Positions 2,023-64,000 are shown, counted from the first letter of the stretch. The stretch is 64,000 nucleotides of DNA from Minisyncoccota bacterium (GCA_035708165.1 DASSSZ010000005.1:112840-176839), one strand, 5' to 3'. Notes: generated from the letters alone by a model not told the origin. Translations and numbers: made by a program.

Positions 2023-2096
2023 CCGCCCGTAGCTCAGCTGGTTAGAGCTCGGAGCTTATACCTCCGCGGTCCTTGGTTCGAATCCAAGCGGGCGGA
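2023..2096 (+). tRNA. tRNA-Ile, anticodon UAU (gene TAT)
   Basis: Hand-folded cloverleaf. Acceptor CCGCCCG pairs with CGGGCGG. D-arm is GCTC/GAGC and T-arm is CTTGG-TTCGAAT-CCAAG. Anticodon loop is CTTATAC. No CCA is encoded. Confidence 0.75.
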
Positions 2097-2193
2097 CACG
2101 CATTCGCAATTCGTACGAGCGGCACCAGGGTGGCGTGGGATATTCCGCCGCGGTCCTTGGTCGGATCAGTGGGCAGGCGTGCACCGCAAGGAT

Positions 2194-8396: not shown

Positions 8397-9080
8397 GTGC
8401 TAGCATATCCACGTATGATCCCTCTCGTCCTCTTCGCGATCGCCTCACTCGCTGTCCTGCTCATCGCGGCGGCGCTCGCGCTTGCGGCATACGCGTGGCT
8501 GCGCGGCCGGGGGGACGCGGCGCTCGCAAAGGAGGATGCGCGCCTGCGGGCCGAGCGCGAGGCGGCGGGCATCGTCGCGCATGCCGAGGACGAAGCGCGC
8601 GACCTCATGGGCGAGGCGCAGGAGGCGAGCATGCGGCTCGCATCCGCCCGCGCGTCTGAGGATGAGAAGGCGGCGCGCGCGTTCGAGGCGCGCTTCGATG
8701 CGCTCCTCGCGAAGCTCGAAGCCAGGCTCGATGCCACGGGCGAGGCGATCGCCGCGGCCGAGCAGCACGCGAGCGCCGAGGCCCTCGCGCGGCTCAAGGC
8801 ATCCGGCGAGACGGCACAGGCGCATCTCGAGGAGGCGCTTGCCGCGCTCGGGAAGGATGCATCCGCGCGGATCGAGACGGAGGTGGCGCAGGCGTTCTCA
8901 GCCGCGCGCGACGCAGCGGCGCAGTACGTCGCAGCGCGCACCGCGGCCGTGGATGCGCAGATAGGCGCGCTCATCAGCGAGACAGTGAAGGCGGTCCTCG
9001 GGAAAGACATGCCCGAGTCACTGACGGTCGAACTCGCGCAGAAGGCGCTCGAGGAGGCGAAAGCAGCGCATGTCTTCTAA
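8397..9080 (+). CDS. atpF: F0F1 ATP synthase subunit b-like
   Basis: One N-terminal TM helix followed by a long Ala/Glu/Arg-rich helix. Position is at the head of the atp cluster. Confidence 0.6.
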   Translation: MLAYPRMIPLVLFAIASLAVLLIAAALALAAYAWLRGRGDAALAKEDARLRAEREAAGIVAHAEDEARDLMGEAQEASMRLASARASEDEKAARAFEARFDALLAKLEARLDATGEAIAAAEQHASAEALARLKASGETAQAHLEEALAALGKDASARIETEVAQAFSAARDAAAQYVAARTAAVDAQIGALISETVKAVLGKDMPESLTVELAQKALEEAKAAHVF

Positions 9081-51922: not shown

Positions 51923-52603
51923 ATGATCTATTTCGATAAGGTGACTAAGGCATATGGCGACGGAGTCCCGGCCGTCGAGGACATCGAGCTCTCGATCGAG
52001 CCGGGCGAGTTCGTCTCGATCGTCGGCCACTCGGGCGCTGGCAAGACGACCCTCCTCAAGATGCTCTTCGCCGAGGTCGCGCCGACCGCCGGCGCGGTGT
52101 ATTTCGGCTCGCGCGATATCAGCCAGCTGCGGCCGAAGGAGCTCCTCGAGATGCGCCGCATCATCGGCACGGTCTTCCAGGATTTCCGCCTGCTGCCCAC
52201 CAAGAACGTGTACGAGAACATCGCGTTCGCGATGGAGGCGGCCGGGCGGCTCGATGAGGATATCGAGGCGGATGTCCCGCACGTGCTCGATCTCGTCGGG
52301 CTCGCGGATAAGATGTGGAGCTTCCCGCACGAGCTCTCGGGCGGCGAGCAGCAGCGCGTCGCGATCGCACGCGCCATCGTCAACCAGCCCGATATCCTCA
52401 TCGCGGATGAGCCGACCGGCAACCTCGACCCGATCAATACGTACGAGGTGGTGCAGATCCTCAAGAAGATCAACGACCTGGGCACGACCGTGCTCCTGAC
52501 GACGCACAACAAAGGCGTCGTCGATTCTATCAATCGCCGCGTCGTCACGATGGACCAGGGGCGCATCGTGCGCGACGACCCGGCTGGCAAGTACGTCCTC
52601 TAA
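51923..52603 (+). CDS. ftsE: cell-division ATP-binding protein FtsE
   Basis: Walker A GHSGAGKTT, ABC signature LSGGEQQR and Walker B ILIADEPTGNLD. Start MIYFDKV at 51923. Confidence 0.9.
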   Translation: MIYFDKVTKAYGDGVPAVEDIELSIEPGEFVSIVGHSGAGKTTLLKMLFAEVAPTAGAVYFGSRDISQLRPKELLEMRRIIGTVFQDFRLLPTKNVYENIAFAMEAAGRLDEDIEADVPHVLDLVGLADKMWSFPHELSGGEQQRVAIARAIVNQPDILIADEPTGNLDPINTYEVVQILKKINDLGTTVLLTTHNKGVVDSINRRVVTMDQGRIVRDDPAGKYVL

Positions 52604-52606
52604 TCT

Positions 52607-53536
52607 ATGCAGCATCTCTGGCTCTCAGCGAAACGCATCGGCCGCTACGGCCTCATCGGGTTCTTCCGCAACGGCTTCGTCACGCTGGCGGCGATCCTCA
52701 TCATGACGATCACGCTCGCCGTGATCGGGACGATGATGGTCACGGGCGCCGCGCTCTCAGCGACGCTTTCGACGCTCTCGGACAACGTCGATATCAGCGT
52801 GTACTTCACGCCTGATGCGCCGGAGGACCGCATCATGCAGGTCAAGAGCGCGCTCGAGGCGCTCCCTGAGGTGGCGAACGTCACCTACACGACACGCGAC
52901 CAGGCGCTCGAGCAATTCAAGGCGCGCCATCAGAACGACCAGCTCACGCTCCAGGCGCTCGATGAGCTCGCGGACAACCCGCTCGGCGCATCGCTCTCCA
53001 TCCAGGCGAAGGACACGAGCGAGTACCAGGCGATCGATACCTTCCTGCAGACCGCGCCGGGCGTCGGCGAGGGATCGGATAGCATCATCGACAAGGTGAA
53101 CTTCGCGCAGAACAAGACGGCGATCGAGCGGCTCTCGAACATCATCGCGACCGCGCGCACGGCGGCGATCGCGATCGCGATCATCTTCGCGATCGCATCC
53201 ATCCTCATCGCGTTCAACACCATCCGGCTCGCGATCTATACGAGCCGCGAAGAGATCGGCGTCATGCGGCTCGTGGGTGCCGGCTCGTGGTACGTGCGCG
53301 GGCCGTTCGTGGTCGCCGGCGTGCTCTACGGCATCATCGCCGCGATCCTGGTGCTCGTCCTCATGTACCCGGTCACGTTCTACCTCGGCGGGCCGTCGGA
53401 GCGATTCTTCGGCACGTTCAATACCTTCACGTACTACATGCACGCGTTCCCGCTCATCTTCTCGATCATCCTCGGCACCGGCATCGTGCTGGGCGCGCTT
53501 TCGAGCTTCCTCGCAGTGCGCCGCTACCTGCGATAA
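52607..53536 (+). CDS. ftsX: cell-division permease FtsX
   Basis: Four TM segments with a large periplasmic loop. It lies immediately downstream of ftsE. Confidence 0.85.
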   Translation: MQHLWLSAKRIGRYGLIGFFRNGFVTLAAILIMTITLAVIGTMMVTGAALSATLSTLSDNVDISVYFTPDAPEDRIMQVKSALEALPEVANVTYTTRDQALEQFKARHQNDQLTLQALDELADNPLGASLSIQAKDTSEYQAIDTFLQTAPGVGEGSDSIIDKVNFAQNKTAIERLSNIIATARTAAIAIAIIFAIASILIAFNTIRLAIYTSREEIGVMRLVGAGSWYVRGPFVVAGVLYGIIAAILVLVLMYPVTFYLGGPSERFFGTFNTFTYYMHAFPLIFSIILGTGIVLGALSSFLAVRRYLR

Positions 53537-53567
53537 GCGGGGATTCCGGGAAAAGAAGGCCGCCGAA

Positions 53568-53921
53568 TCATTCGGCGGCCTCTCGTTTGGGGGCGCGGTA
53601 GCGCAAGAACGAGCCCGCGATACGCTCGACGAGCATGACATAGGCATCCGTCCCGTCAGGGACAGCGAAGCGCCGCGTGGTGCGTCGCAGCTTCGTGCGG
53701 ACGCTCTTCTCGAATGACGAGAGAGCGACGCTCCCGTTGATGCGGGCCTCGATCAGCTTGCTGTCATGCACGACCTTGAGAAGGATCGTCCCGTCCGGAT
53801 GCCGCCCGCGGCGGACCATGAGGCCGTCGCGCTTCCACGCGTCGACTACCTGCTGCGGGATGATCCGTTCCGCCTCCTCGCGGATGCGAGGGTCCTGCGG
53901 CGGGAACTTCTCGGTCTCCAT
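53568..53921 (-). CDS. hypothetical protein
   Basis: 117-aa ORF, basic. No recognised motif. Confidence 0.4.
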   Translation of the reverse strand: METEKFPPQDPRIREEAERIIPQQVVDAWKRDGLMVRRGRHPDGTILLKVVHDSKLIEARINGSVALSSFEKSVRTKLRRTTRRFAVPDGTDAYVMLVERIAGSFLRYRAPKREAAE

Positions 53922-54055
53922 TGCTGTACTCCTTCAAAAAAGAAAAGGCCTTGCAGGGATGCAAGAACCTCGTGCCCTTTCTATTGTACGCATCCGCTCG
54001 GCTGCGGCAAGGCCGGCATGTGCATTACCCGAGCGGCACCTGCTATGATGCGGCA

Positions 54056-54787
54056 ATGGCGCTCTCGCTTATCTCTCTCAATATCGAGCGGGACCGGCAC
54101 CTGCCCGCAGTCGAGGCGCTCCTGCAGGAAACGGCACCGGATGTGGCTTGCCTCCAGGAGGTTTTCGAAGCAGACCTGCCAGCACTCGCGAAAGCGGCCG
54201 AGGGTGAGGCGCTCTTCGTGCCGCGCATCCGCTATCCGAGCCCGCGCGGCCTCATGCCGGAAGGGCTCGCGATCATTTCCCGACGAGGGCTCTCCGATCA
54301 GGCATCAGCATGCTATGCCGGCGAGAAGGCCGCGATCCCGATCGCGGCGATCGACGGCTCCGTCGAGGAGAAGCAGCGCGACCAGCGCTATAGCATCGCG
54401 TCCTGCCTCGTCGAGAAGGATGGCGCCTCTTACCGCATCGTGACGACGCATTTCCCCTGGACGCCCGACGGCGAAGCGGATGCGTTCCAGCGCGATGCGC
54501 TCGCAGGGCTCTTCAGCGTGCTCGAGCCATTAGGCGAATTCGTGCTGACCGGCGATTTCAATGCGCCGCGCGGCAAGGAGATCTTCAGTGCGATCGCCGA
54601 GCGGTACGCGGATGCCGTGCCGCCCGCGTATGGATCTTCGATCGACGGACGCATCCATCGCGCCGGACCGATCCCGTACATGGTGGATGGCCTGTTCTCG
54701 ACGCAGGACTATCGCATCTCGGACGTCGTGATGCGCTGCGGCGTCTCCGATCACTGCGCGCTCGCCGGGGCAATCGAGCGCGCCTGA
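54056..54787 (+). CDS. endonuclease/exonuclease/phosphatase (EEP) family protein
   Basis: Start MALSLISLNIE at 54056. ...CLQEV..., VTTHFPW, LTGDFNAPRG and VSDHCAL are motifs typical of the EEP fold. Confidence 0.7.
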   Translation: MALSLISLNIERDRHLPAVEALLQETAPDVACLQEVFEADLPALAKAAEGEALFVPRIRYPSPRGLMPEGLAIISRRGLSDQASACYAGEKAAIPIAAIDGSVEEKQRDQRYSIASCLVEKDGASYRIVTTHFPWTPDGEADAFQRDALAGLFSVLEPLGEFVLTGDFNAPRGKEIFSAIAERYADAVPPAYGSSIDGRIHRAGPIPYMVDGLFSTQDYRISDVVMRCGVSDHCALAGAIERA

Positions 54788-57084
54788 TTCCCGCCGAGCC
54801 GCTCCGCGATGCCGTCCTCGACAGCCATCAGCGGCGCGCCGAAGGTGAGGCGGGAGAGCTCGGCGAGCTTCTCCGCGACCTCGGGGCTGCCGCGCGGAGG
54901 CAGCGGGATCGTCATATTGAACGCGCGCGTGGGCTGCCCGTGCACCAGGGGGCGGATGATCGCGTGCAGATTGGGGAGGGTGATGAGGTCGGTCGAGGCG
55001 AAGTTCGGCGCCATGTGCTTCTCCAGGGCCTCCGCGTCCTCGGTCCCCACGCGGAAGGAGACCAGCGTGCCCGCATTGCCGAAGACCGCATCGCGGATAT
55101 GCTCCGGCAGCTGCCCGAGGTACTGGTGCGCGATGGTGAGATTAAGGCGGTACTTGCGCGCTTCGGAGAGGATGGTCGTGATGGAGTCGGTGGTGAAGTT
55201 CTGGAATTCATCGATATAGAGGTAGAAGTCGCGCCGTTCCTCCTGCGCGACGTCATCGCGCCCGAGCGCAGCCATGAGGAGCTTGCCGGTGATCACCATG
55301 CCGAGCAGGTTCGCATTGATCTCGCCGATCCTGCCCTTCGGGAGCTTCACGATGAGGATCTTCCCTTCGTCCATCACCTGCCGGAAATCGAAGGCGCTCT
55401 TCACCTGGCCGATGATCGGCCGCATGTAATCGTTGCCGATGAAGCCGCCGAACTTCGAGGTGATATAGGGCGTCATGTTCGCGAGCGCGCCTTCGCCGCC
55501 GGCCTTCTCGGCCTCTTCGCGCCAGAAATTCGCGACGACAGGATTCCGGCAGCGCTCAAGCTTCGCGCGGCGCCACGCGGCATCGGTGAAGATGCGCGGG
55601 ACCTCGACGAGCGTCGCCGGCTCGACGGCAGCGTCTTCCATGAGCAGGAGGAGCGCGTTGCGCATGTACTGCTCGAACATCGGGCCCATCGTCTCCTCTG
55701 AGTAGAGGCGATTGAAGATGGATTGCATCTCGTTCACGATGAAGGTCTTCTGCTCCGGGCGGCTGGGGTCGAACTCGAGCATGTTGAGCCCGAGCGGGCG
55801 GCCGAGCTCCGAGGGGTCGAACACGATCACGTCCTCGATGCGCTCCGCCGGCACGAGCCCCAGGATCTCATCGGCGAGGTCGCCGTTCGGATCGATGAGG
55901 CACGCACCAGCGCCGCGCGCGATATCCTGCGCGAGCATGCCGCGGATGAGCGTGGACTTGCCGGTGCCTGTCTGGCCCACCATGTACACGTGCCGCCGTC
56001 TATCCTCGTCCGTGAGCCGCACGTCGCGATGCTCGCCCCGGAACTCGCTTTGGCCGAGCATGATGCCTTCGGCGGGGAGCGCCGGGGCTTCCGCTGAACG
56101 CGCCGAGTGCCAGGCGATGCGCGGGATATCCAGATCGGCAGTAGGCAGGTGGAAGATGCTCGCGAGCTCCTCGGTGTTCATCGGCATGGCGCCTTCGCCC
56201 GGCTCGCGGAACGCGTAGCGATACGCGAGGCTTTTCATATCCCGCGGCTTCTTCAGCCCGAACGCGTTCCGGGTAGGGCCGGCGAACTGGCCGAAGCTTC
56301 CGGCGATATCGAGCAGGAGGTCAGCCGCGCGGTCGCTCGATTCGGCTGCGACGATGATGCGCACTTCCGCCGAGAGCAGCGGCTTCGCGATCTTGCGCTC
56401 GAGCGCCTGCACGGCTGCATCATCGATAGGGCGGAAGCGCTCTTCATGAGGGTCCTCCTTGCGCGGGCTTCCCGCGAAGGCCTTCTTCACGTCGGTGAAC
56501 GCATTCTCGCTGAGGATGGCGGAAAGCTTCTCGCCGCCCTGCACGCGCTCGATCGCGCTCCGGACGGATTTCGCGAAGCTGCCAGGGGCAGGGCTGACGA
56601 TGATCTGGAGCGCGGCCCCGTCGCCTGCATCATTGAGCTTCCCCAGAGAGGAGAGGATCCCGGCGAACGTGTCCACCTCCGCTTCCGCATACGTGCGGAT
56701 CGGGAGAAGCGGCTTCTCTTTCATGGTGAGCGTGCCCCCGGCCGTCCGGCTTCCTTGGCCGAAGATCGTATAGTCGTCCGTCTCCTCGACGCGCGCACGG
56801 GGGAATAGCCCGAGGATCTGCTGCTCGGCGAAGCTGCGCTTCGCGCGGGGCACGGCGATATAGAAATGGATATCAGTCCCGACATTGTGCACCGCGACCT
56901 CGAAGACGAACGGTTCGCCGAGCGAGAGCAGGGATGCGAAGAGCTGCTCGCTGCGCTTGATATCGGAAAGCTCGTTCCGCGGATCGCGCTCCTCGCCGGC
57001 CGGACGCGGCAGCGTGATCTCGAGCAGCCGGAGCTCGAGCTGCTCCGCGAGATGCTTCTTGGAGAAGGGGAGAGCGAAGGCCAT
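54751..57084 (-). CDS. FtsK/HerA-superfamily P-loop ATPase, TraD/VirD4-like (type IV coupling protein/DUF87-type)
   Basis: Walker A VGQTGTGKST and Walker B YLYIDEFQNF. A ~330-aa N-terminal region of unknown function. 777 aa. Confidence 0.5.
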   Translation of the reverse strand: MAFALPFSKKHLAEQLELRLLEITLPRPAGEERDPRNELSDIKRSEQLFASLLSLGEPFVFEVAVHNVGTDIHFYIAVPRAKRSFAEQQILGLFPRARVEETDDYTIFGQGSRTAGGTLTMKEKPLLPIRTYAEAEVDTFAGILSSLGKLNDAGDGAALQIIVSPAPGSFAKSVRSAIERVQGGEKLSAILSENAFTDVKKAFAGSPRKEDPHEERFRPIDDAAVQALERKIAKPLLSAEVRIIVAAESSDRAADLLLDIAGSFGQFAGPTRNAFGLKKPRDMKSLAYRYAFREPGEGAMPMNTEELASIFHLPTADLDIPRIAWHSARSAEAPALPAEGIMLGQSEFRGEHRDVRLTDEDRRRHVYMVGQTGTGKSTLIRGMLAQDIARGAGACLIDPNGDLADEILGLVPAERIEDVIVFDPSELGRPLGLNMLEFDPSRPEQKTFIVNEMQSIFNRLYSEETMGPMFEQYMRNALLLLMEDAAVEPATLVEVPRIFTDAAWRRAKLERCRNPVVANFWREEAEKAGGEGALANMTPYITSKFGGFIGNDYMRPIIGQVKSAFDFRQVMDEGKILIVKLPKGRIGEINANLLGMVITGKLLMAALGRDDVAQEERRDFYLYIDEFQNFTTDSITTILSEARKYRLNLTIAHQYLGQLPEHIRDAVFGNAGTLVSFRVGTEDAEALEKHMAPNFASTDLITLPNLHAIIRPLVHGQPTRAFNMTIPLPPRGSPEVAEKLAELSRLTFGAPLMAVEDGIAERLGGNQARSIAPASAQ

Positions 57085-57089
57085 GCGGC

Positions 57090-57485
57090 TTAGATGAGCC
57101 CGCGCTGCGAGAGGGCATCGTAGAGCTTATCGACCAGCGCATCATGGAAGGCATCGAGGATGTACGGGTCTTTCGTGCGCGCATCCGCGATCGCAGCTGC
57201 GATGCCTTTCTCCTGGATCTCATCGATGAGCGCATTCACCGAGGCGGCGGTTGCCGGATCCGTATGGTCAAGGTAGCTGCCGCTCGAAGCCGCGGGATCC
57301 GCGGGGGCGGCAGCCGCCTGCGCGGCATCGTGCAGCGCATTGCCGATCGCCGCCTTGGCGATCTCCTGTGATGCGGCGCTTTCGATGCCGGCTTCGCGCT
57401 CGAGCACGCTGCGGCGCGATGCGATTTCCGTATTGATCGCTGCCACTTCCGCCTCGAAAGCGGGCGAGAATCGCTCCGGTTCCAT
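57090..57485 (-). CDS. hypothetical protein co-oriented immediately upstream of the TraD-like ATPase
   Basis: Start MEPERF at 57485. Helical and Ala-rich. 131 aa. Confidence 0.4.
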   Translation of the reverse strand: MEPERFSPAFEAEVAAINTEIASRRSVLEREAGIESAASQEIAKAAIGNALHDAAQAAAAPADPAASSGSYLDHTDPATAASVNALIDEIQEKGIAAAIADARTKDPYILDAFHDALVDKLYDALSQRGLI

Positions 57486-57569
57486 GCGCCAAGTATAGCA
57501 GCTTAGCGTTGAAGGAAGCCGTCGTTTCATGTATGCTGTGCAGACGCTGAGTCCGCCGACTCGGCGTAT

Positions 57570-57640
57570 TGCCGGATCGTCTAATGGTAGGACAACGGAT
57601 TCTGGCTCCGTTTATCTAGGTTCGAGTCCTAGTCCGGCAG
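57570..57640 (+). tRNA. tRNA-Gln, anticodon CUG
   Basis: TGCCGGA-TC-GTCT-AATGGTA-GGAC-A-ACGGA-TTCTGGC-TCCGT-TTAT-CTAGG-TTCGAGT-CCTAG-TCCGGCA-G. Confidence 0.85.
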
Positions 57641-57715
57641 CAGCTTAGTTTAGTATCGAAGGACCTAGAGGGGTATAAATGCTTCTGTTTCTACTCACCC
57701 CCCGAAAGGCCTATA

Positions 57716-60529
57716 ATGTATGGGTTGCCCATTATGGATTCTTACAAGTATGGGTCTAAATGGCGTAGGTGGGATTTGCACCTACATACACCAGAAACCC
57801 TAAAAGAAGATCAGTACACTGGAACGACGCCCGAGGAAAAGTGGGAGAATTTTTGCAATGATATAAACTCCACCGACGCTGAAGTATCGGTCGTGGGCGT
57901 AACCGACTATCTCCTCATCGATAACTACAGGAAATTCCACTCCTTCATCGATTCAGGGAAGATCACCAAGAAATTCGACCTTGTCATCCCAAACATCGAG
58001 CTTCGGCTTACCCCGGTGACCGGAAGCGGGACAGCCTTGAACCTCCACCTATTAATCGATCCTGCGTTCGTGGACCAGCTCGAGTCCCGCATTTACTCAA
58101 AACTCAAAATCAAAAGCGGCACGACGGAATACACCGCTCTTCGGGCTGACTTGATTCGTCTCGGTAAGACGATAGATGCGGCAGCTTCAGACGACGTCGC
58201 GTACAAGAAAGGAGCCGAGCAGTTCGTCATCGATTTCGATACCCTCAAAGGAGTCTTTGATAACGATCCCGACCTGCGTAACCACTGCCTCATTGTGGTG
58301 GCTAACAGCTCGCATGATGGAGCCACGGGTGTAACGCACCACGCAAGCTTCTTCACGGCTACCGGCTCGAGCCTCGATACTAAGCGACAGGCGATTTACA
58401 AATTTGTTGACGCTATATTCTCCGCTAATCCTAGCGACCGTACATACTTCCTCGGTAAGTCTTCCAGCGATACACGCGACATCGTCATCGACAAGTGCGG
58501 AAGTCTCAAGCCGTGCGTGCACGGATGCGATGCGCATACTAACGCGAAGATCTTTAAGCCGGATCAAAATCGATATTGCTGGATAAAGGCGAATCCTACG
58601 TTCGAGGGCCTACGACAAATCCTATTCGAGCCGGAGGAGCGCATCTGCGTTCAAGAGCTACAGCCGGATGAGAAGGAGCTTTATCGCGTTATCGACAAGG
58701 TGAAGCTGACCGATGCGAATTTCACTGCCGAGCCGCTCGAACTCAATCCGAATCTGAACGTAATTATCGGCAGCCGCTCATCAGGAAAAACGACGCTGCT
58801 TAACAGCATTGCTAAAGCGGTAGACGTATCTGAATACGAGCTGCGTCATAAAGATTCCCCGCCCATAAAGGAACCTCCAAGCGCAAACGTGTTCTGGCTC
58901 GACGGCGCGGAAAGCGGTGCTGCAGAAACGCAGAAAGGCATTACCTACATACCTCAAAACTACATAAACAGCCTCGCCGAAGCGACCGAGGAAAATTCGC
59001 CCATACTTGAGATCGCCGAGAATGCGCTCTTCGACAGCACAGGCGGCATTGCTCAGGAAAGGAAGGATTTAAATCTCAAAATCGAGCAACTTAACCGCAC
59101 CATCGGTAACGACGTCTACCAGCTTTTTGTTACCCGGAAGCAGATCGCCGAGCAGAAGGAGAAGATCAAAAAGATCGGCGACAAAAAAGGTATAGAGGAG
59201 CAAATCAAGAAAGTCGAAGCCGAAATCGCGAAGCTTCAAAAGGACCTTACCAAAGCTGAGGCTGCTACTTTAAAGAAGCTCCGTGAAGAGTATGCGGACA
59301 ATAAAAAGCAAATCGAGACCATTACTGCTGATGTCGAGACGCTGACCGAGGAAACCGCTGATGTCGAAAGGGGTGCCAGCTTTTTTGAGGAAAGATCGCT
59401 CAGCTTGAAATCCGAGGAGCTGTCACGAGAGCTTGGCGAATTCACTGGCAAGCTCCAGGATGAATACCTGCAAAAGTACGTAGCGTTCGTTAATAGGAAA
59501 AAGGAGGAGCTGGCCAAGGAAAAGAAAAAACTCGAGGAAGACAATAAGAAAATACTCGACAACAACAAGGTCCTTATTGATAAGGCAAAGCAGAACACGG
59601 CCGCCGATCAGAAAGTGAAGGAGAAGGAGGCTCAGGACAAAAAGCTCGCGGAAATATCGTCGGCAGAGAAGGCGCTCAAGACCAGCGAGGATGCGCTATT
59701 GGCCACGCTCACAAAAATCGTTCTGGCGCACAAGGAGCGCTCTAACGCCCGACATGCCTTCGTCGCGAAAGCAACCGGAGATCTGGAAGGGATCGAGTAC
59801 CGCGCAGTGGTGGGGATCGACACGGTGAAGCTCGATAAGTTCATGACGGATTTCGTGAACTTCCACAACTCAACCGGCGCACGTACCCAGCTCAATGCGA
59901 TTCCTGGCTATAAAACGGGCGAGGACACGGATGTTTCGACTCTGATAAAAAACGACAACATTAAGACAACCGCCGAACTTATTCTTAGCGATACCTTGAA
60001 GCTTAAAGCCGGCATCGATTTGCAGCGCGCCATCGAGGGACTGTTCGGCGACTTTGAATTCATCAACTACTCTCTCAAATATGAGGGCGACAACTACCCT
60101 GAAATGACCCCAGGCAAGAAATCTCTCGTCGTATTAAAGCTGCTCGTCGAATCCAGCGAGGATAAATATCCGATTCTCATAGACCAGCCAGAGGACGATC
60201 TCGATAGCCGTTCAATATCGGGCGAAATCGTCGATTTCTTACGCTCCAAAAAGAAGGAGCGACAGATTATCCTCGTCACACATAACGCGAACATTGCTAT
60301 CAAGGCAGATGCGGAGGAGATCATTGTCGCCAACCGTCACTCTACGCAGCATCCGAACAAGAATGCTGTCATGTTTGATTACACGACAGGCGCTATCGAG
60401 ACGAGCTTCGTAAATCCGTCTGCCGCATTTTCTCTTGACAAAATGGGTATGCGCGAGCATGCATGTGAACTTCTGGAAGGTGGTGAGGAAGCGTTCGAGA
60501 ATCGGAAGAATAAATATAATCTAAAGTAA
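57716..60529 (+). CDS. PHP-domain phosphoesterase fused to an SMC/OLD-like ABC ATPase (single-protein anti-phage defense candidate, Ppl-like architecture)
   Basis: N-terminal PHP motifs (WDLHLHTPET, ...SSHDGATGVTHHASF, CVHGCDAHT). ABC ATPase with Walker A IIGSRSSGKTTLLNSI, a ~250-aa coiled-coil insertion, Walker B/D-loop ILIDQPEDDLD and H-loop LVTHNAN. A TATAAT box lies 6 nt upstream. Confidence 0.8.
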   Translation: MYGLPIMDSYKYGSKWRRWDLHLHTPETLKEDQYTGTTPEEKWENFCNDINSTDAEVSVVGVTDYLLIDNYRKFHSFIDSGKITKKFDLVIPNIELRLTPVTGSGTALNLHLLIDPAFVDQLESRIYSKLKIKSGTTEYTALRADLIRLGKTIDAAASDDVAYKKGAEQFVIDFDTLKGVFDNDPDLRNHCLIVVANSSHDGATGVTHHASFFTATGSSLDTKRQAIYKFVDAIFSANPSDRTYFLGKSSSDTRDIVIDKCGSLKPCVHGCDAHTNAKIFKPDQNRYCWIKANPTFEGLRQILFEPEERICVQELQPDEKELYRVIDKVKLTDANFTAEPLELNPNLNVIIGSRSSGKTTLLNSIAKAVDVSEYELRHKDSPPIKEPPSANVFWLDGAESGAAETQKGITYIPQNYINSLAEATEENSPILEIAENALFDSTGGIAQERKDLNLKIEQLNRTIGNDVYQLFVTRKQIAEQKEKIKKIGDKKGIEEQIKKVEAEIAKLQKDLTKAEAATLKKLREEYADNKKQIETITADVETLTEETADVERGASFFEERSLSLKSEELSRELGEFTGKLQDEYLQKYVAFVNRKKEELAKEKKKLEEDNKKILDNNKVLIDKAKQNTAADQKVKEKEAQDKKLAEISSAEKALKTSEDALLATLTKIVLAHKERSNARHAFVAKATGDLEGIEYRAVVGIDTVKLDKFMTDFVNFHNSTGARTQLNAIPGYKTGEDTDVSTLIKNDNIKTTAELILSDTLKLKAGIDLQRAIEGLFGDFEFINYSLKYEGDNYPEMTPGKKSLVVLKLLVESSEDKYPILIDQPEDDLDSRSISGEIVDFLRSKKKERQIILVTHNANIAIKADAEEIIVANRHSTQHPNKNAVMFDYTTGAIETSFVNPSAAFSLDKMGMREHACELLEGGEEAFENRKNKYNLK

Positions 60530-61798
60530 AATTAGGTTTTTATTTTCCAGCTGTAGTTGGGATTTCAGGCAAGTGAGAAGATCTCGCCTCTCAAATATCG
60601 ACCCTTCGGTTAGCAGGTACTTCGCGTAGTTGCGAATATCGGCGTCCTTCACAGAATAATTCTCGTCTGCCTTGCCCATAATCCCTGAATGGAACTTCTT
60701 ATGCCGCTCAATCTCAGCCTCGAGCTTTTTCTTGATACCAGAGCGGTCAAGATCTATCTGGTCAATAATTTCCGTTAGTTGCGAGATAAGGACCTTCTCC
60801 TCAATGTAGCCTTCTTTGCAGTTGATATTCCGTGAGCGAGTGCAACCATAGTAGATGTACTTGGCGATCGAACCGTCCTTCAGGGTCTTGAATTTCTCTT
60901 GGGCCGTCACACCGGATCCGCAGGTTCCACAGGAGAGCAAACGAGTGAAAGCGAACTCTTTGTTTTTGCCTCGGGCTTTGATTTGAAGGTGAAGCTGCTT
61001 CTGCACCTCTTCGAAAAGTTCTCTGGATATGAGTGGCGTATGCTTACCCTGGAACCATCGGCCGCTGTTCTTGGGGTATTCAAAAGTACCGTAGTAGAAG
61101 TGGTTATTGAGAATGACGTATACGTTGCTCAGAGTTAGAGGTTTGCCGGTACGGGTAACGAATTTGATTTCCTTGAGCCAGCGATATACTTTCCTACCAC
61201 TCCAGCCTTCATTGGCTACTTTCTGAAAGAGTTCCTTCATAACAGGGGCTCGATCAGGATCTACGAACACCACGCCTTTCTGATCCTTATTTTTTGAATT
61301 GAGATAACCGGTTGGGGCTACTGAAGGCCAGAGGCCGAGCTCGCACTTGGTTTTGAGCCCGCGCTTCACATTGATGCTCTTGTTGTCGTTCTCCAGCTTC
61401 GCCTGGCTACCAAGGATCATGAGAAGGAACTTCTCATTGGGGTTGTTAGTGAAGCGTTGACTGTAAGTACGAATTTCAATGAGCTTCTTCTGGTCGAAGA
61501 GATCCACGATCGCCCCAAGGTCGCCGGCATTGCGGGATAGACGGTCCGGATGCCACACCAAGATCCCATTGAATTTACCCTCCCGAATATTGAGAAGGAG
61601 CTGGTTGAACACAGGCCGCTGGCCGGCATCCTTTGCGGAGTGCGATTCTCGGTACATATCGACCACATTCAGTCCGTCTCGCTGCGCTAAGGCCAACATC
61701 TCCTTAAGCTGGGAATCTATCGAAAGCGCCTGTTTTTCCTCGGCTTCGCTCGATTTTCGGGCGTACAGGCAGTACCTGACTGGCTCCTGGTTTTCCAT
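60521..61798 (-). CDS. large serine recombinase (serine integrase)
   Basis: Resolvase catalytic N-terminus VRYCLYARKSSEAEEKQALSIDSQ (nucleophile Ser). Recombinase domain. Zinc-ribbon CGTCGSGV...YYGCTRSRNINC plus a coiled coil. The start could alternatively be 61843. Confidence 0.85.
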   Translation of the reverse strand: MENQEPVRYCLYARKSSEAEEKQALSIDSQLKEMLALAQRDGLNVVDMYRESHSAKDAGQRPVFNQLLLNIREGKFNGILVWHPDRLSRNAGDLGAIVDLFDQKKLIEIRTYSQRFTNNPNEKFLLMILGSQAKLENDNKSINVKRGLKTKCELGLWPSVAPTGYLNSKNKDQKGVVFVDPDRAPVMKELFQKVANEGWSGRKVYRWLKEIKFVTRTGKPLTLSNVYVILNNHFYYGTFEYPKNSGRWFQGKHTPLISRELFEEVQKQLHLQIKARGKNKEFAFTRLLSCGTCGSGVTAQEKFKTLKDGSIAKYIYYGCTRSRNINCKEGYIEEKVLISQLTEIIDQIDLDRSGIKKKLEAEIERHKKFHSGIMGKADENYSVKDADIRNYAKYLLTEGSIFERRDLLTCLKSQLQLENKNLILL

Positions 61799-61911
61799 AC
61801 AACACAACACATGCCCGAAGCCGGGGAAGAAGTCCATACCCAAGCTGGTGGTAAGAAATACGGCTTTAAACCAAGGCGATTTCGTGATAAAATCATGAAA
61901 ATCCTTATTTT

Positions 61912-63510
61912 ATGGCCACGTTGAATTGGATCGGAAAAGAGGCGGTGGCAAACCACGACAAAGAGGTGCCTTTCAAGTTGCTTGAGAAAGTCCCGAGCGC
62001 ATCCGTCGGTAAGGAATCAAAGAATCTCGTCATTCACGGCGACAATCTAGAAGCACTTAAAGCACTTTTGCCTTTCTATCAAGGCGAGGTTAAGTGCATT
62101 TATATTGATCCTCCATACAACACCGGAAACGAGGATTGGGCATACAACGATAATGTAAGTTCTCCCAAAATTCGAGAGTGGATCAAGAAAACTGTGGGGC
62201 GAGAAGGGGAAGACCTCACTAGACATGACAAGTGGCTTTGCATGATGTATCCCCGTCTTAAACTCCTTCGTGATCTTTTACGGGATGACGGGGTCATATT
62301 TGTCAGTATCGATGACAATGAACAGCACCACCTCAAGATACTGATGGATGAGATTTTCACAGCTCGGAATTTTATTGGGCAGATTACCGTCGTTGGAAAC
62401 CCACGAGGTAGAGATTATGGTGGAATTGCGCGCATGCACGACTACCTTCTTGTTTACTCGAAGGAGTTTGGAAAGGCAGATATCAACAACTTGAACGATC
62501 CTGATAAGGAGTTTCCTTTTGAGGACAGCAGGGGAGGTTTTGAGATTCGCGAGCTACGCAATCGCAATATTGCTTTCCATATAGGGAATAGGCCTAATCT
62601 TCATTACCCCTTTTATGTCAATCCAAAGAAGAAAGACGAGAATGGTTTTTTTGAGATCTCGCTTGAGAAAAAGAGTGGCTGGACTGAAGTTTTTCCGAAA
62701 GAATCTCAGGGATTTAAGACTGTTTGGCGTTGGGGGAAAGCGCGTTCTCAGCAAAATCTGAATACTGAAATTGTTGCAAAGAAGATGATGGATGGTGGTT
62801 ATCAGATTGTTGAAAAGTATCGTGAGAGAACACGGATGGCTCGATCTGTCTGGTGGGACAAAGATGATAATACTGAAAAAGGAACGCTGGAGGTTAAGAA
62901 TCTTTTTGATGGCAAGAAAGTGTTCAATTTCCCTAAGTCCATGGAAATGGTACGGAAGGTGGTTGAGATGGGTACTGGACCAGACGACATTGTCCTTGAT
63001 TCGTTTGCGGGATCGGGTACAACAGGCCACGCTGTGCTCGATTTAAACAAAATGGATGGCGGACACCGTCGCTTTATTTTGGTTGAAATGGAAGATGACG
63101 TCGTGAAGAAAATCACTGCTGAAAGGATCAAGAAAGCTATAAAAAAGTACGACTATGACGGAGGCTTTGAATATTGCGAGCTCGCTTCCGCCCTTTTTGA
63201 TCAGAATGGATTGATAAATGAGTCGTGTTCATATGCCGACTTGGCTTCTTACATTTTCTTCACCGAGACGCAAACAAACGTCGATAAAAAAGCAATCAAA
63301 AATCCATTCGTTGGTGAGAGTGGCGGGATTTCCTACTACCTCGTTTACGCTGGCCGTGGAAAAAATGACTTAACTCGAGCTTCACTCAGCAAGCTCAAGA
63401 TCGCCGGTCCTGCAGTCGTATATGCTGATCGTTGTCTTGTGGACGAGGATGAACTGAAGGAGAAAGGTATTACCTTCAAACAGATCCCGTACGAGATAAC
63501 AATCTACTAA
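61912..63510 (+). CDS. mod: Type III restriction-modification system methyltransferase (Mod), N6-adenine type
   Basis: Motif IV DPPYN, motif I FAGSGTTG and Mod-like overall architecture. 532 aa. Confidence 0.9.
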   Translation: MATLNWIGKEAVANHDKEVPFKLLEKVPSASVGKESKNLVIHGDNLEALKALLPFYQGEVKCIYIDPPYNTGNEDWAYNDNVSSPKIREWIKKTVGREGEDLTRHDKWLCMMYPRLKLLRDLLRDDGVIFVSIDDNEQHHLKILMDEIFTARNFIGQITVVGNPRGRDYGGIARMHDYLLVYSKEFGKADINNLNDPDKEFPFEDSRGGFEIRELRNRNIAFHIGNRPNLHYPFYVNPKKKDENGFFEISLEKKSGWTEVFPKESQGFKTVWRWGKARSQQNLNTEIVAKKMMDGGYQIVEKYRERTRMARSVWWDKDDNTEKGTLEVKNLFDGKKVFNFPKSMEMVRKVVEMGTGPDDIVLDSFAGSGTTGHAVLDLNKMDGGHRRFILVEMEDDVVKKITAERIKKAIKKYDYDGGFEYCELASALFDQNGLINESCSYADLASYIFFTETQTNVDKKAIKNPFVGESGGISYYLVYAGRGKNDLTRASLSKLKIAGPAVVYADRCLVDEDELKEKGITFKQIPYEITIY

Positions 63511-63514
63511 TCCT

Positions 63515-64000
63515 ATGAAGCTCAAGCGTTATCAAACAAACGCAATAGAAACGCTGGATCAATTCCTGGATCTCGTCAGGAAGATGAAGCCGCGGCATGC
63601 CTTCAATGAGATAACGGAGCAGGTCTACAACCATGAGTGGTTCGGGGACGTACCTTTTGTGTGTATTCGTATCCCCACGGGCGGCGGAAAAACGTTCGTT
63701 GGCTGCAAGGCAGTCGAACGGATCATGAGCACAGTCCTCCAGAACAAGATGGACACCGGCATTGTGATGTGGTTCGTACCATCAGACTCCATCAAGACTC
63801 AAACGTTGAAGAAGTTCCGAGATCCTAAAGATGCCCACTACCAAGCGCTGAACGAAGCATTCGGGACGAAGTTCAAAGTCTTTTCAAATGAAGAGGCTTT
63901 GACAATTTCGCCGGAGGACGTGACGAATAATCTCTGCGTTATCGTCGCCAGTCTCGATGCATTCAGGAAAGACGCGTCTATTCAGAAAAAGTACAAGGTC
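63515..64000 (+). CDS. res: Type III restriction enzyme Res subunit (helicase/ATPase), 3' end outside the window
   Basis: ATG 5 nt after the mod stop. Walker A IRIPTGGGKTFVG and the beginning of a DEAD-like helicase. Confidence 0.8.
   Translation, partial: MKLKRYQTNAIETLDQFLDLVRKMKPRHAFNEITEQVYNHEWFGDVPFVCIRIPTGGGKTFVGCKAVERIMSTVLQNKMDTGIVMWFVPSDSIKTQTLKKFRDPKDAHYQALNEAFGTKFKVFSNEEALTISPEDVTNNLCVIVASLDAFRKDASIQKKYKV

What the first reader, a model, noticed from the sequence alone, without database searches (positions are those of the whole stretch)
57641..64000. Low-GC genomic island at tRNA-Gln carrying three defense modules and a large serine recombinase
GC content falls from ~67% to ~40-50% exactly at the 3' end of tRNA-Gln (57640) and stays low to the window end. 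The segment encodes a PHP-ABC ATPase fusion, a convergent large serine recombinase, and Type III R-M mod and res genes. This is a horizontally acquired defense island. It is rare and informative in a lineage with small, streamlined genomes. The right boundary and any att repeat lie beyond the window. Large serine recombinases usually target coding genes rather than tRNAs, so the true attachment site may be elsewhere; for example, the island may extend and the tRNA adjacency may be coincidental.
Basis: seen in the sequence. Interest (0 to 1): 0.75.

Follow-up and report, generated by a model that had tools for sequence, protein, structure and literature searches.

The report
Serine-recombinase defence island at tRNA-Gln
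The low-GC block after tRNA-Gln is a real, horizontally acquired island in a Paceibacterota (CPR) genome carrying two defence systems, and its large serine recombinase belongs to a widespread CPR family that sits almost invariably next to the 3' end of a tRNA gene, a target that serine integrases are rarely reported to use.

Summary
GC falls from 0.658 to 0.479 at tRNA-Gln(CTG) (57570-57641) and stays low to the window end. An independent Logan contig spans the junction at 100% identity.

The genes are:
- a TrlF-family PHP + SMC-like ATPase, related to Ppl but not a Ppl member
- an intact large serine recombinase (LSR)
- Type III mod, and the start of res

That makes two defence modules, not three.

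In 77 non-redundant metagenome loci with LSR orthologues, all 46 tRNAs within 5 kb lie downstream of the LSR and convergent with it (p = 2e-30). Most are tRNA-Gln. A conserved ~35-40 nt motif abuts the tRNA 3' end, and the window has its copy at 57642-57680. A 99.9%-identical element sits behind two different tRNA-Gln genes.

Cargo is modular. TrlF, Type III R-M and a ParB-methylase cluster recur around this LSR. The R-M clade in the window is mostly LSR-linked.

Such islands are common in CPR, not rare. The right end and the exact crossover remain unresolved. I judge this a new variant of a known kind, of moderate interest.

The parts
57570..57641 (+). tRNA-Gln(CTG). Host gene whose extreme 3' end is the left junction of the island (attL, B arm).
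   Evidence: ARAGORN. Rfam tRNA, 61.1 bits. GC drops immediately after it. Orthologous LSR elements abut tRNA-Gln in 28 of 41 metagenome loci that have a flanking tRNA.
57642..57680 (+). Junction motif 'J': AGCTTAGTTTAGTATCGAAGGACCTAGAGGGGTAT. This is the element-side arm directly after the tRNA. It contains the quasi-palindromic core GACC-N6-GGTC (here GACCTAGAGGGGTA, with the last position degenerate). Proposed P' half-site of attL.
   Evidence: A PWM built from 10 subclade-A junctions (the window's own copy is one of the 10) scores 46 bits here. The next best score in window 50-64 kb is 6.7 bits. The same motif sits at the same place in L065, L066, L068, L072, L073, L076, L077 and L078. The exact 14-mer is unique in the window.
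57716..60529 (+). TrlF-family protein: N-terminal PHP phosphoesterase/nuclease domain (about 1-320), SMC/Rad50-like ATPase head split by a coiled coil of about 350 aa (Walker A 352-358, Walker B 823-827). Candidate single-gene anti-phage effector.
   Evidence: NCBIfam NF045780, 548.6 bits against cutoff 350. PADLOC Ppl, 91 bits, partial. Invariant H22, H24, D64, E95, H111, D272, H274, K358, D823, E826 and H856 in 42 homologues. AF2 pLDDT 85.8, with Foldseek hits to Smc, JetC, MukB, Rad50 and LmuB. N-terminal domain model matches RNase AM and the Pol III alpha PHP domain, E = 2e-6 to 1e-3.
60521..61798 (-). Large serine recombinase, 425 aa, apparently intact. It is transcribed toward the tRNA. 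Its stop overlaps the TrlF stop by 9 nt.
   Evidence: Pfam Resolvase 86 bits, Recombinase 64 bits, Zn_ribbon_recom 24 bits. Motifs YARKSS, DRLSR and four Cys are present. Best solved relative is SPbeta SprA/YokA, E = 5e-15. Orthologues at 58-87% identity in more than 100 loci.
61799..61911 (.). Conserved LSR-upstream region 'U' (about 61805-61870, read on the - strand: TTCTTACCACC...TATGGACTTCTTCCCCGGCTTCGGGCATGTGTTGTGTTGTATG), followed by the mod promoter region. The Logan contig ends here, at 61910.
   Evidence: A family-wide motif lies upstream of every LSR start. The TTACCAAC-type repeat is found only upstream of LSR genes. The LSR-mod intergenic region aligns with L015, L006, L018 and L088.
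61912..63510 (+). Type III R-M methyltransferase (Mod), 532 aa.
   Evidence: PADLOC MTase_III PDLC03644, 529 bits, positions 1-530 of 542. Pfam N6_N4_Mtase, 119.5 bits.
63515..64000 (+). Type III restriction subunit (Res). First 162 aa only, with helicase motif I (PTGGGKT). Cut by the window end.
   Evidence: Pfam ResIII, 36.5 bits. PADLOC REase_III, 92.5 bits. 85% identical to the N-terminus of the 758-aa Res of L006.

Best explanation
Window 57642-64000 is the tRNA-proximal part of an integrative genomic island. The island belongs to a Patescibacteria-wide family of elements built around one clade of large serine recombinases.

Inferred mechanism of integration:
- The recombinase recombines an attP on the circular element with an attB formed by the last nucleotides of a tRNA gene, here tRNA-Gln(CTG).
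- The tRNA is left intact.
- The conserved element arm J is placed directly behind the tRNA.
- The recombinase gene points back toward the tRNA.

Cargo is modular and sits in two slots: between J and the LSR, and beyond the conserved LSR-upstream region U. In this window the first slot holds a TrlF-family PHP-nuclease/SMC-like ATPase. That protein probably senses foreign DNA with the SMC-like head and degrades it with the PHP domain, by analogy with Ppl, Lamassu and Rad50-Mre11. The second slot holds a Type III restriction-modification system.

The DNA came from lower-GC CPR relatives and has been only partly ameliorated. The island continues past the window end. Relatives with both candidate ends measure about 9-12.6 kb.

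Shown here: the composition shift, the gene identities and folds, the statistical LSR-tRNA linkage, the junction motif, and one near-identical element behind two different tRNA-Gln genes.

Inferred: that the LSR catalyses the integration, the exact crossover position, the far end, and the defence activity of TrlF.
For: 1. Foreign origin. GC is 0.479 against 0.658 with no overlap between windows, and GC3 is 0.48-0.64 against 0.71-0.91.

2. LSR-tRNA linkage. In 77 non-redundant metagenome LSR loci, all 46 tRNAs within 5 kb are downstream of the LSR and convergent with it. None falls in the other three side/strand classes (binomial p = 2e-30). 41 of 58 loci with at least 400 nt of downstream sequence have such a tRNA: 28 Gln, the rest Arg, Asn, Tyr, Ser, Lys, Leu, Trp and Glu.

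3. Junction motif. J begins within a few nucleotides of the tRNA 3' end in every case. Its type follows the LSR subclade, not the tRNA identity. The window copy scores 46 bits and is unique.

4. Recent mobility. L002 and L003 share at least 9.6 kb at 99.9% identity, starting at the tRNA. Their tRNA-Gln(TTG) T-arm and acceptor sequences differ, and so do their upstream host genes (ATP synthase against EamA/sigma-70). This places the crossover 3' of the acceptor stem.

5. One element, not just neighbours.
   - The LSR-mod intergenic region is conserved in five loci.
   - 9 of the 13 closest Res relatives have this LSR directly adjacent.
   - L170 carries LSR, Type III R-M, TrlF and a ParB-methylase cluster in one block.
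   - L006, another high-GC host (about 0.64), has the same layout at tRNA-Gln(CTG) with at least 11 kb of low-GC DNA.

6. Candidate distal sites. A second copy of the J core (TGACCCGTCTAGGTCGC) lies 3.6-9.2 kb upstream of the LSR in L065, L066, L068, L081 and L127. None is present in the window.

7. The LSR looks intact. The TrlF fold and catalytic residues are conserved.
Against: - No empty site and no excised attP junction was recovered, so integration by this LSR is inferred from association only.
- The right end of the window's island could not be reached. The source genome is not in genome contigs, exact-protein look-ups failed, and no full-length Res was returned.
- The distal core copies were found in only 5 of about 11 subclade-A loci with at least 3.6 kb of sequence on that side (the denominator is an estimate from the locus map). 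Their flanks are not conserved, so they may not be att sites.
- Related LSRs (86-90% nucleotide identity) lose similarity sharply at the outer edge of U. L071 and L074 lose it at the U centre. This could mean that the truly mobile unit is only J..LSR..U, and that mod-res lies outside it.
- Mod has lower GC3 (0.475) than TrlF, the LSR and Res (0.61-0.64), which hints at a different history.
- Partial tRNA-3' fragments followed by J occur in non-tRNA contexts (L170, L093, L117, L138). The simple model does not fully explain them.
- TrlF has no experimental defence evidence that I could find.
Confidence: 0.72

Rival explanations
1. Composite locus. The mobile unit is only J-TrlF-LSR-U (57642 to about 61870, about 4.2 kb). 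It inserted between tRNA-Gln and an older, independently acquired mod-res island, whose own integrase (if any) lies beyond the window.
For: - LSR orthologues of 86-90% nucleotide identity share only the block from the outer edge of U to the tRNA junction, and differ completely outside it.
- L071 and L074 (95% identical) diverge exactly at the U centre CTAGACT.
- In subclade A, J starts with AGTCTAG, the reverse complement of the U centre.
- Mod GC3 is 0.475 against 0.61 for TrlF and the LSR.
- The Logan contig ends at 61910.
Against: - L002 and L003 stay 99.9% identical for at least 8 kb beyond U.
- The LSR-mod intergenic region, including the mod promoter, is homologous in five loci from different hosts.
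- This Res clade is LSR-adjacent in 9 of 13 loci, on either side of the LSR.
- The Res fragment has the same GC3 (0.64) as the LSR.
- The window's own J and U do not share the heptamer (AGCTTAG against AGTCCAT).
- The Logan contig break is equally explained by k-mers shared with the conserved 5' end of other mod genes in the sample.
Confidence: 0.17
2. The LSR is not the integrase of the island. It is a passenger (resolvase, or the recombinase of a nested element). The island was placed at tRNA-Gln by a tyrosine integrase located beyond 64 kb, as in classical tRNA islands.
For: - Tyrosine integrases account for nearly all known tRNA-integrated elements. S-Int use of t(m)RNA genes was 14/297 and unproven in Mageeney et al. 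2020 (PMC7192596).
- The right-hand part of the island was not seen.
- L071 shows a 165-nt insertion with an 18-nt duplication of the tRNA-Gln 3' end, which is typical of tyrosine-type integration at the same tRNA.
Against: - The side, strand and distance relation between LSR and tRNA holds in 46 of 46 cases. It includes minimal arrangements with only 79-150 nt between the LSR stop and the tRNA.
- The junction motif co-varies with the LSR subclade.
- No long direct repeat of the tRNA 3' end was found in most relatives with long flanks.
- No tyrosine integrase was called in the annotated related loci L002-L005 and L170.
Confidence: 0.07
3. Artefact. The GC shift is a chimeric assembly or binning join between a high-GC and a low-GC organism.
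For: The change is abrupt, at a tRNA that is conserved between organisms and so could bridge a mis-assembly. The window comes from a MAG.
Against: - An independently assembled Logan contig spans 5.3 kb of host and 4.3 kb of island at 100% identity.
- L006 shows the same high-GC host / low-GC island transition at tRNA-Gln in another MAG.
- The junction motif J lies exactly where the family rule predicts.
Confidence: 0.02
4. The LSR is a DNA invertase or phase-variation switch controlling the divergently transcribed mod gene, rather than an integrase.
For: The LSR and mod are divergent with a conserved intergenic region. Recombinase-controlled R-M phase variation is known in other systems (general knowledge).
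Against: - The full Recombinase + Zn-ribbon + coiled-coil architecture is typical of integrases.
- Most orthologues have no R-M neighbour: about 2 of 100 LSR-selected loci.
- No inverted repeats bracket the mod promoter.
- R-M occurs on either side of the LSR.
Confidence: 0.02

Closest known systems
SCC / SCCmec-type cassette chromosomes mobilised by Ccr large serine recombinases, including anti-phage defences mobilised in tandem (PMC11470126)
   Same: - An LSR sits inside the element rather than strictly at its end.
- Insertion is at the extreme 3' end of a conserved housekeeping gene, which stays intact.
- Cargo is modular and composite or tandem arrangements occur.
- Defence systems are carried as cargo.
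- CcrB is the best NCBIfam match of the window's LSR (E = 5e-40).
   Different: - The target is a tRNA gene, not rlmH/orfX.
- There is a single recombinase gene, not a ccrAB pair.
- The CcrB model scores 137.6 bits against a cutoff of 900, so this LSR is not a Ccr.
- The host is Patescibacteria.
- No flanking ISS-like direct repeats were demonstrated.
Classical tRNA-integrated genomic islands and prophages with tyrosine integrases (Islander/TIGER-type IGEs, P4-like)
   Same: A tRNA gene is the landing site. There is a compositional shift at the tRNA 3' end. The integrase gene lies near the tRNA-proximal end. Defence cargo is carried. Accretion at one tRNA is seen in relatives.
   Different: - The recombinase is a serine integrase, not a tyrosine integrase.
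- The junction lies after the acceptor stem, so no tRNA 3' segment is supplied by the element (L002 against L003).
- No long direct repeats were found.
- Mageeney et al. 2020 found S-Int at t(m)RNA sites in only 4.9% of cases and called it previously unreported.
Tycheposons of Prochlorococcus (bioRxiv 10.1101/2020.12.28.424599)
   Same: Cargo-carrying integrative elements at tRNA genes in a streamlined genome. A minority (27 of 937) carry an LSR instead of a tyrosine recombinase.
   Different: A different phylum. The hallmark there is a tyrosine recombinase plus replication genes, and no replication module was seen here. Whether the LSR-type tycheposons use the tRNA end in the same way was not examined.
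Ppl (PHP + ATPase single-gene anti-phage system; name recalled from Gao et al. 2020, represented by the PADLOC and NCBIfam Ppl models)
   Same: A single large protein with an N-terminal PHP domain and a C-terminal ABC/SMC-type ATPase with a coiled coil. The PADLOC Ppl model is the best PADLOC hit (E = 1e-26).
   Different: Only the ATPase C-terminal region aligns. NCBIfam Ppl_antiphage scores 104.7 bits against a cutoff of 1000, while TrlF_fam_ATP passes its cutoff (548.6 against 350). I found no experimental anti-phage evidence for TrlF.
Type III restriction-modification systems (EcoP15I-like)
   Same: mod is immediately followed by res (a 4-nt gap). The Mod matches a Type III MTase model over its full length. 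The Res N-terminus has the ResIII helicase motifs.
   Different: Only 162 aa of Res are in the window. The orthologous Res in L006 is 758 aa, shorter than the PADLOC REase_III models (871-989 positions). The nuclease domain was not examined.

Membership tests
tRNA-associated genomic island (integrative genetic element) | Composition and codon usage deviate from the host. | tested here: met
   GC 0.479 against 0.658, with non-overlapping windows. GC3 0.48-0.64 against 0.71-0.91.
tRNA-associated genomic island (integrative genetic element) | Starts at a tRNA gene and carries a site-specific recombinase near that end. | tested here: met
   tRNA-Gln ends at 57641 and the island begins at 57642. 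The LSR stop is 2.9 kb from the tRNA.
tRNA-associated genomic island (integrative genetic element) | Two defined ends (attL and attR), and an empty site in relatives. | not testable with these tools
   The right end lies beyond 64 kb. The source contig is absent from genome contigs and from the exact-protein index. No empty site was recovered.
tRNA-associated genomic island (integrative genetic element) | Sporadic distribution, or the same element in different genomic contexts. | tested here: met
   A related element (L002/L003/L004, 99.3-99.9% identical) lies behind two different tRNA-Gln genes with different upstream genes. Cargo differs between loci.
Large serine recombinase (serine integrase) | N-terminal resolvase catalytic domain with the nucleophilic Ser. 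| tested here: met
   PF00239, 86.4 bits. Motifs YARKSS (S16/S17) and DRLSR are present.
Large serine recombinase (serine integrase) | Recombinase domain plus zinc-ribbon domain with an embedded coiled coil. | tested here: met
   PF07508, 64.2 bits. PF13408 scores 24.2 bits, just under its 25.3 cutoff, but four Cys are present. Aligns to SPbeta SprA over residues 16-397. The coiled coil is inferred from sequence only.
Large serine recombinase (serine integrase) | Cognate attP/attB with quasi-palindromic half-sites around a central dinucleotide. | tested here: inconclusive
   The conserved arm J at the tRNA end and distal core copies in 5 relatives are candidates. The crossover dinucleotide and the P arm could not be defined.
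Ccr recombinases / SCC elements | Membership of the CcrA/B/C equivalog families. | tested here: not met
   CcrB 137.6 bits against 900. CcrC 63.9 against 900. CcrA 57.4 against 700.
Type III restriction-modification | Mod methyltransferase of the Type III kind. | tested here: met
   PADLOC MTase_III, 529 bits, full length. PF01555, 119.5 bits.
Type III restriction-modification | Adjacent Res with SF2 helicase motifs and a C-terminal nuclease. | tested here: inconclusive
   The N-terminal 162 aa match ResIII and REase_III. The rest lies outside the window. The L006 orthologue (758 aa) matches REase_III over positions 2-439 only.
Ppl anti-phage protein | Passes the Ppl equivalog model. | tested here: not met
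   NF042955, 104.7 bits against a cutoff of 1000, C-terminal stretch only.
TrlF family AAA-like ATPase (NCBIfam NF045780) | Full-length match above the curated cutoff. | tested here: met
   548.6 bits against 350, residues 13-935 on model positions 2-944.
PHP-domain + SMC/Rad50-like ATPase fusion | PHP fold with metal-binding His/Asp/Glu residues, and a split ABC-type head with a coiled coil. | tested here: met
   Invariant H22, H24, D64, E95, H111, D272 and H274, plus Walker A, Walker B and H-loop. Foldseek hits to RNase AM and Pol III PHP, and to Smc, JetC, MukB, Rad50 and LmuB.
Tycheposon | tRNA-integrated element with a hallmark recombinase plus a replication module. | not tested
   No replication genes are present in the 6.4 kb seen. 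The rest of the island is unavailable.

The most novel reading that the evidence does not exclude
This LSR clade is a natural family of serine integrases whose attB is the generic 3' end of tRNA genes (T-arm plus acceptor). Subclades have retargeted between tRNA-Gln, Arg, Asn, Tyr, Ser, Lys, Leu, Glu and Trp. In addition, the conserved site U next to the recombinase's own promoter acts as a second recombination or entry point, where defence cassettes (Type III R-M in six loci) are swapped in. On that reading the element would be an integron-like defence-gene platform in CPR bacteria.
Probability: 0.1. Interest if true: 0.8.

Novelty: new variant of a known kind. Interest (0 to 1): 0.55.

Why it matters
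Taken alone, a defence island at a tRNA gene is ordinary. What the follow-up adds is a large clade of serine integrases that is tied to tRNA 3' ends: more than 500 relatives in metagenomes, spread across Patescibacteria.

The large survey I read (Mageeney et al. 2020) found this target class in only 4.9% of serine-integrase elements. It described it as previously unreported and still in need of experimental proof.

If the linkage reflects catalysis, three things follow:
1. These enzymes show how a serine integrase can use a universally conserved RNA gene without damaging it.
2. They give a handle on how defence genes (Type III R-M, TrlF, ParB-methylase clusters) circulate among ultra-small CPR genomes, and apparently between GC-rich and GC-poor lineages.
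3. They offer compact (about 425 aa) integrases with a predictable, conserved landing site for genome engineering in uncultivated or hard-to-transform bacteria.

The work also shows that defence islands are common, not rare, in this 'streamlined' lineage.

Tried and rejected
1. Extending the contig.
   - Exact-protein look-ups of Mod and of the NCBI TrlF entry found nothing.
   - TrlF and the 777-aa flank protein returned only the same 9.5-kb Logan contig.
   - The single genome-contig scan, run with the Res fragment, did not contain the source genome.
   - A protein search with the Res fragment returned only short fragments, not the full-length protein.
   - The right end therefore stays unknown.

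2. Repeats within the window. No direct or inverted repeat relates 57.6 kb to 61.9 kb or to any other position. No second copy of the J core is present.

3. Direct repeats of the tRNA 3' end plus J in 28 related loci, searched with blastn-short. Second junction copies turned up in L071, L098 and L138, with a weaker one in L094; the rest were chance-level hits.

4. Symmetric attP model. The 20 nt outside the distal core copies are neither conserved nor complementary to the J spacer. I could not derive a crossover dinucleotide and dropped the attempt.

5. 'The crossover lies in the GACC-N6-GGTC core, and the 20-nt spacer is host DNA.' Rejected, because the spacer type follows the LSR subclade and occurs behind many different tRNAs.

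6. Empty site via the gene flanking the distal end in L068. No homologue in any fetched locus or in the window.

7. Known RNA for J, U or the distal flank. Rfam found only tRNAs, plus LOOT RNA inside some related elements.

8. Plasmid similarity. Only the conserved mod N-terminus matched.

9. Literature on 'TrlF'. Nothing relevant was found.

10. Pfam PHP models do not detect the N-terminal domain. A structure prediction was needed.

Full report
**Observation**

The window is a high-GC segment of a Candidatus Paceibacterota MAG. A 100%-identical NCBI protein, 'MAG TPA ... VFL98_03510', lies on a 178.7-kb contig.

- 500-nt windows up to 57.5 kb have GC 0.658 +/- 0.031, never below 0.574.
- Windows from 57642 to the window end have 0.479 +/- 0.031, never above 0.53.
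- The cumulative change point falls at 57490, so the shift lies within 57490-57641. That stretch is the intergenic region plus tRNA-Gln(CTG) at 57570-57641.
- Third-position GC is 0.71-0.91 in host genes. It is 0.61 (TrlF), 0.61 (LSR), 0.64 (res fragment) and 0.475 (mod) in the island.
- A Logan contig assembled independently from run SRR25158513 matches window 52347-61910 at 100% identity without gaps. It crosses the tRNA/island junction, so a chimeric join is very unlikely.

**Gene content**

*57716-60529 (+), 937 aa.*
- It is a full-length member of NCBIfam 'TrlF family AAA-like ATPase' (548.6 bits, cutoff 350).
- It matches the Ppl anti-phage models only in the C-terminal ATPase part (NCBIfam 104.7 bits against 1000; PADLOC 91 bits).
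- Pfam sees no PHP domain.
- In 42 homologues the residues H22, H24, D64, E95, H111, D272 and H274 are invariant. So are Walker A (352-358), Walker B (823-827) and H856.
- An AlphaFold model (pLDDT 85.8) matches Smc, JetC, MukB, Rad50 and LmuB heads with a coiled coil.
- A model of residues 1-330 (pLDDT 86) matches RNase AM, the PHP domain of Pol III alpha, and HisK (E = 2e-6 to 1e-3).
The ATPase is SMC/Rad50-like, and the protein is a TrlF-family relative of Ppl, not a Ppl.

*60521-61798 (-), 425 aa.*
- It is a large serine recombinase with Resolvase, Recombinase and zinc-ribbon domains.
- The catalytic-serine motif, DRLSR and four Cys are present.
- The nearest solved relative is SPbeta SprA.
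- Its stop overlaps the TrlF stop by 9 nt.

*61912-63510 (+) and 63515-64000 (+).*
- The first is a Type III Mod (PADLOC MTase_III, 529 bits, full length).
- The second is the first 162 aa of the Type III Res.
- Mod and res form one system, so the island carries two defence modules.

**Is the tRNA adjacency meaningful?**

Yes. Close TrlF homologues (79% identity) lie in an element ordered tRNA-Gln(TTG) | ~180 nt | LSR (58%) | TrlF | ParB-methylase cluster.
- Copies of this element in different samples are 99.3-99.9% identical.
- L002 and L003 nevertheless have different tRNA-Gln T-arm and acceptor sequences, and unrelated upstream genes.
- This is direct evidence of recent mobility. It also places the crossover 3' of the acceptor stem.

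Scanning metagenomes with the LSR gave more than 527 relatives.
- In 77 non-redundant loci, all 46 tRNAs within 5 kb are downstream of the LSR and convergent with it. None falls in the other three side/strand classes (p = 2e-30).
- 41 of 58 loci with enough downstream sequence have such a tRNA, at 79 nt to 6.3 kb from the LSR stop.
- 28 of these are tRNA-Gln. The rest are Arg, Asn, Tyr, Ser, Lys, Leu, Trp and Glu.

Directly after the tRNA end lies a conserved arm, here called J.
- In LSRs at least 71% identical to the window's, J reads AGTCTAGTTTAGTATCGAWGGACCTAGAGGGGTCA.
- In the ~60% subclade it reads CAYATGCTAAGTCAGGTGACYGAGACGCAT, whichever tRNA precedes it.
- The window has the first type at 57642-57680. 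It scores 46 bits on a PWM built from the 10 subclade-A junctions (the window's own copy included). The next best score in window 50-64 kb is 6.7 bits.
- J follows the recombinase subclade, not the host tRNA. It therefore belongs to the element and is the natural candidate for the P' half of attL.

**Is mod-res part of the same element?**

Probably.
- The LSR-mod intergenic region, including a promoter-like stretch, aligns between the window and L015, L006, L018 and L088.
- Among the 13 closest Res relatives, nine have this LSR directly adjacent, on either side.
- L170 carries, in one block, a tRNA-Gln 3' fragment + J, the LSR, a Type III R-M of another lineage, TrlF and the ParB-methylase cluster.
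- L006 comes from another high-GC CPR MAG (about 0.64). It repeats the window's layout at tRNA-Gln(CTG): a small gene overlapping the LSR 3' end, then the LSR, Mod, Res and further genes, with low GC for at least 11 kb.

The case is not closed.
- A second conserved site, U, lies 30-100 nt upstream of every LSR start.
- Related LSR blocks lose similarity sharply at its outer edge. In one pair they lose it at its centre.
- Mod has lower GC3 than its neighbours.
- A composite origin therefore remains a live rival. On that reading the TrlF-LSR unit inserted in front of an older R-M island.

**Ends**
- No repeat in the window marks a right end.
- In five subclade-A relatives, a second copy of the J core (TGACCCGTCTAGGTCGC) lies 3.6-9.2 kb upstream of the LSR. 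This gives element sizes of about 9-12.6 kb where both sites were seen (L065, L066, L068, L081).
- I could not derive a symmetric attP or a crossover dinucleotide from these copies.
- All routes to the sequence beyond 64 kb failed.

**Comparison with what is known**
- The closest functional analogue is the SCC/SCCmec type of element. There, Ccr serine recombinases insert modular cassettes at the 3' end of a housekeeping gene and co-mobilise defences (PMC11470126). The LSR here is not a Ccr (137.6 bits against 900).
- Classical tRNA islands use tyrosine integrases. A survey of 3295 mapped elements found serine integrases at t(m)RNA genes in only 14 of 297 cases. It called this previously unreported and in need of proof (PMC7192596).
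- Tycheposons in Prochlorococcus include a small LSR-bearing minority.
- I found no description of TrlF. Its recurrent neighbours suggest a defence role but do not prove one. They are R-M systems, an SbcCD-like pair, a NgoFVII-helicase and LSRs.

**Verdict**

The island is real and foreign. It carries a Type III R-M and a candidate PHP-SMC defence protein. It is best explained as a member of a CPR-wide family of serine-recombinase elements that insert at tRNA 3' ends.

The island itself is an ordinary kind of object. The tRNA-targeting serine-integrase family behind it is the noteworthy part, and it still needs junction reads or an assay.

Noticed in passing
window 61910 (end of Logan contig L001 = window 52347-61910): The independent Logan assembly of SRR25158513 breaks one base before the mod start codon, inside the conserved LSR-mod intergenic region. 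This may reflect k-mers shared with other mod genes in the sample, or strain heterogeneity at exactly the U/mod boundary.
   Followed up: partly
window 57716-64000; L006 7011-16703: GC3 is heterogeneous inside the islands. In the window, TrlF, LSR and Res are 0.61-0.64 but Mod is 0.475. In L006 (host GC3 0.70-0.93) the LSR is 0.61 while all cargo genes are 0.33-0.37. The recombinase seems to have resided longer in high-GC hosts than its cargo.
   Followed up: partly
L065 1800-1929, L066 2315-2435, L068 2302-2419, L081 3601-3722: LOOT RNA (Rfam RF03000, 76-79 bits against a gathering score of 46.4) lies inside four related LSR elements, between the distal core copy and the LSR. None is present in the window.
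   Followed up: no
L002 8030-8300: Upstream of the intact tRNA-Gln(TTG) there are two tandem partial copies of the tRNA 5' end (TGGGGTGTCGTCTAATG...), each fused to the same unrelated sequence. These look like scars of other recombination events in the 5' part of the same tRNA.
   Followed up: no
L071 10069-10252: A 165-nt insertion separates tRNA-Gln from J and is bounded by an 18-nt duplication of the tRNA 3' end. A different (tyrosine-type or miniature) element appears to use the same tRNA.
   Followed up: no
L138 2395-2560; L110 ~3280; L140 ~3520; L094 16361-16500; L098 6202-6270: Tandem arrays of [pseudo tRNA 3' fragment + J] lie between the real tRNA and the LSR. They may be attP-like junctions of tandem or miniature element copies. 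The simple integration model does not explain them.
   Followed up: partly
L170 2346-2380: Only the last 23 nt of a tRNA-Gln (GGTTCGAGTCCTAAATACCCAGC) precede J, lying a few nucleotides after the recO stop codon. ARAGORN finds no full tRNA in the locus.
   Followed up: partly
L141 ~8413-8480: J is followed by a tRNA-Asn-like 3' end that ARAGORN does not call as a tRNA. Recent work reports group I introns hiding tRNA-Asn and tRNA-Asp genes in Patescibacteria (PMC13011429).
   Followed up: no
window 54751-57084 (-) and 57090-57530 (-): The host-GC genes next to the tRNA are a 777-aa VirD4/TraD/HerA-like coupling ATPase (DUF8128, TrwB_AAD_bind) and a 146-aa protein with a faint PD-(D/E)XK hit. 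Homologues of the ATPase also lie within a few kb of R-M/LSR islands in L009, L012 and L045.
   Followed up: partly
window 61733-61748 and 61816-61831: A 16-nt inverted repeat (88% complementary) brackets the LSR start codon. It could form an mRNA hairpin over the translation start.
   Followed up: no
window 2023-2097: tRNA-Ile with anticodon TAT (UAU), an uncommon way of reading AUA in bacteria.
   Followed up: no
L166-L169 923-15656: In a widespread gut-metagenome organism, a TrlF homologue lies directly after an SbcD/SbcC-like pair and a NgoFVII-PLD-helicase protein. It is followed by Fic and a 569-aa LSR. TBLASTN with the window protein aligns about 45-47% over the two terminal regions. 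This is another defence-island-like context for TrlF.
   Followed up: partly
L026, L033, L035, L036, L038, L041, L047, L049, L053 (res region): res genes of this Type III family are 85-92% identical at the nucleotide level between MAGs assigned to different CPR phyla. Among the DPANN archaeal MAGs (L041, L047, L049, L053) they are 87-92% identical. Protein-level relatives (52-59% in the Res N-terminus) span both CPR and DPANN. This suggests recent exchange within each group.
   Followed up: no
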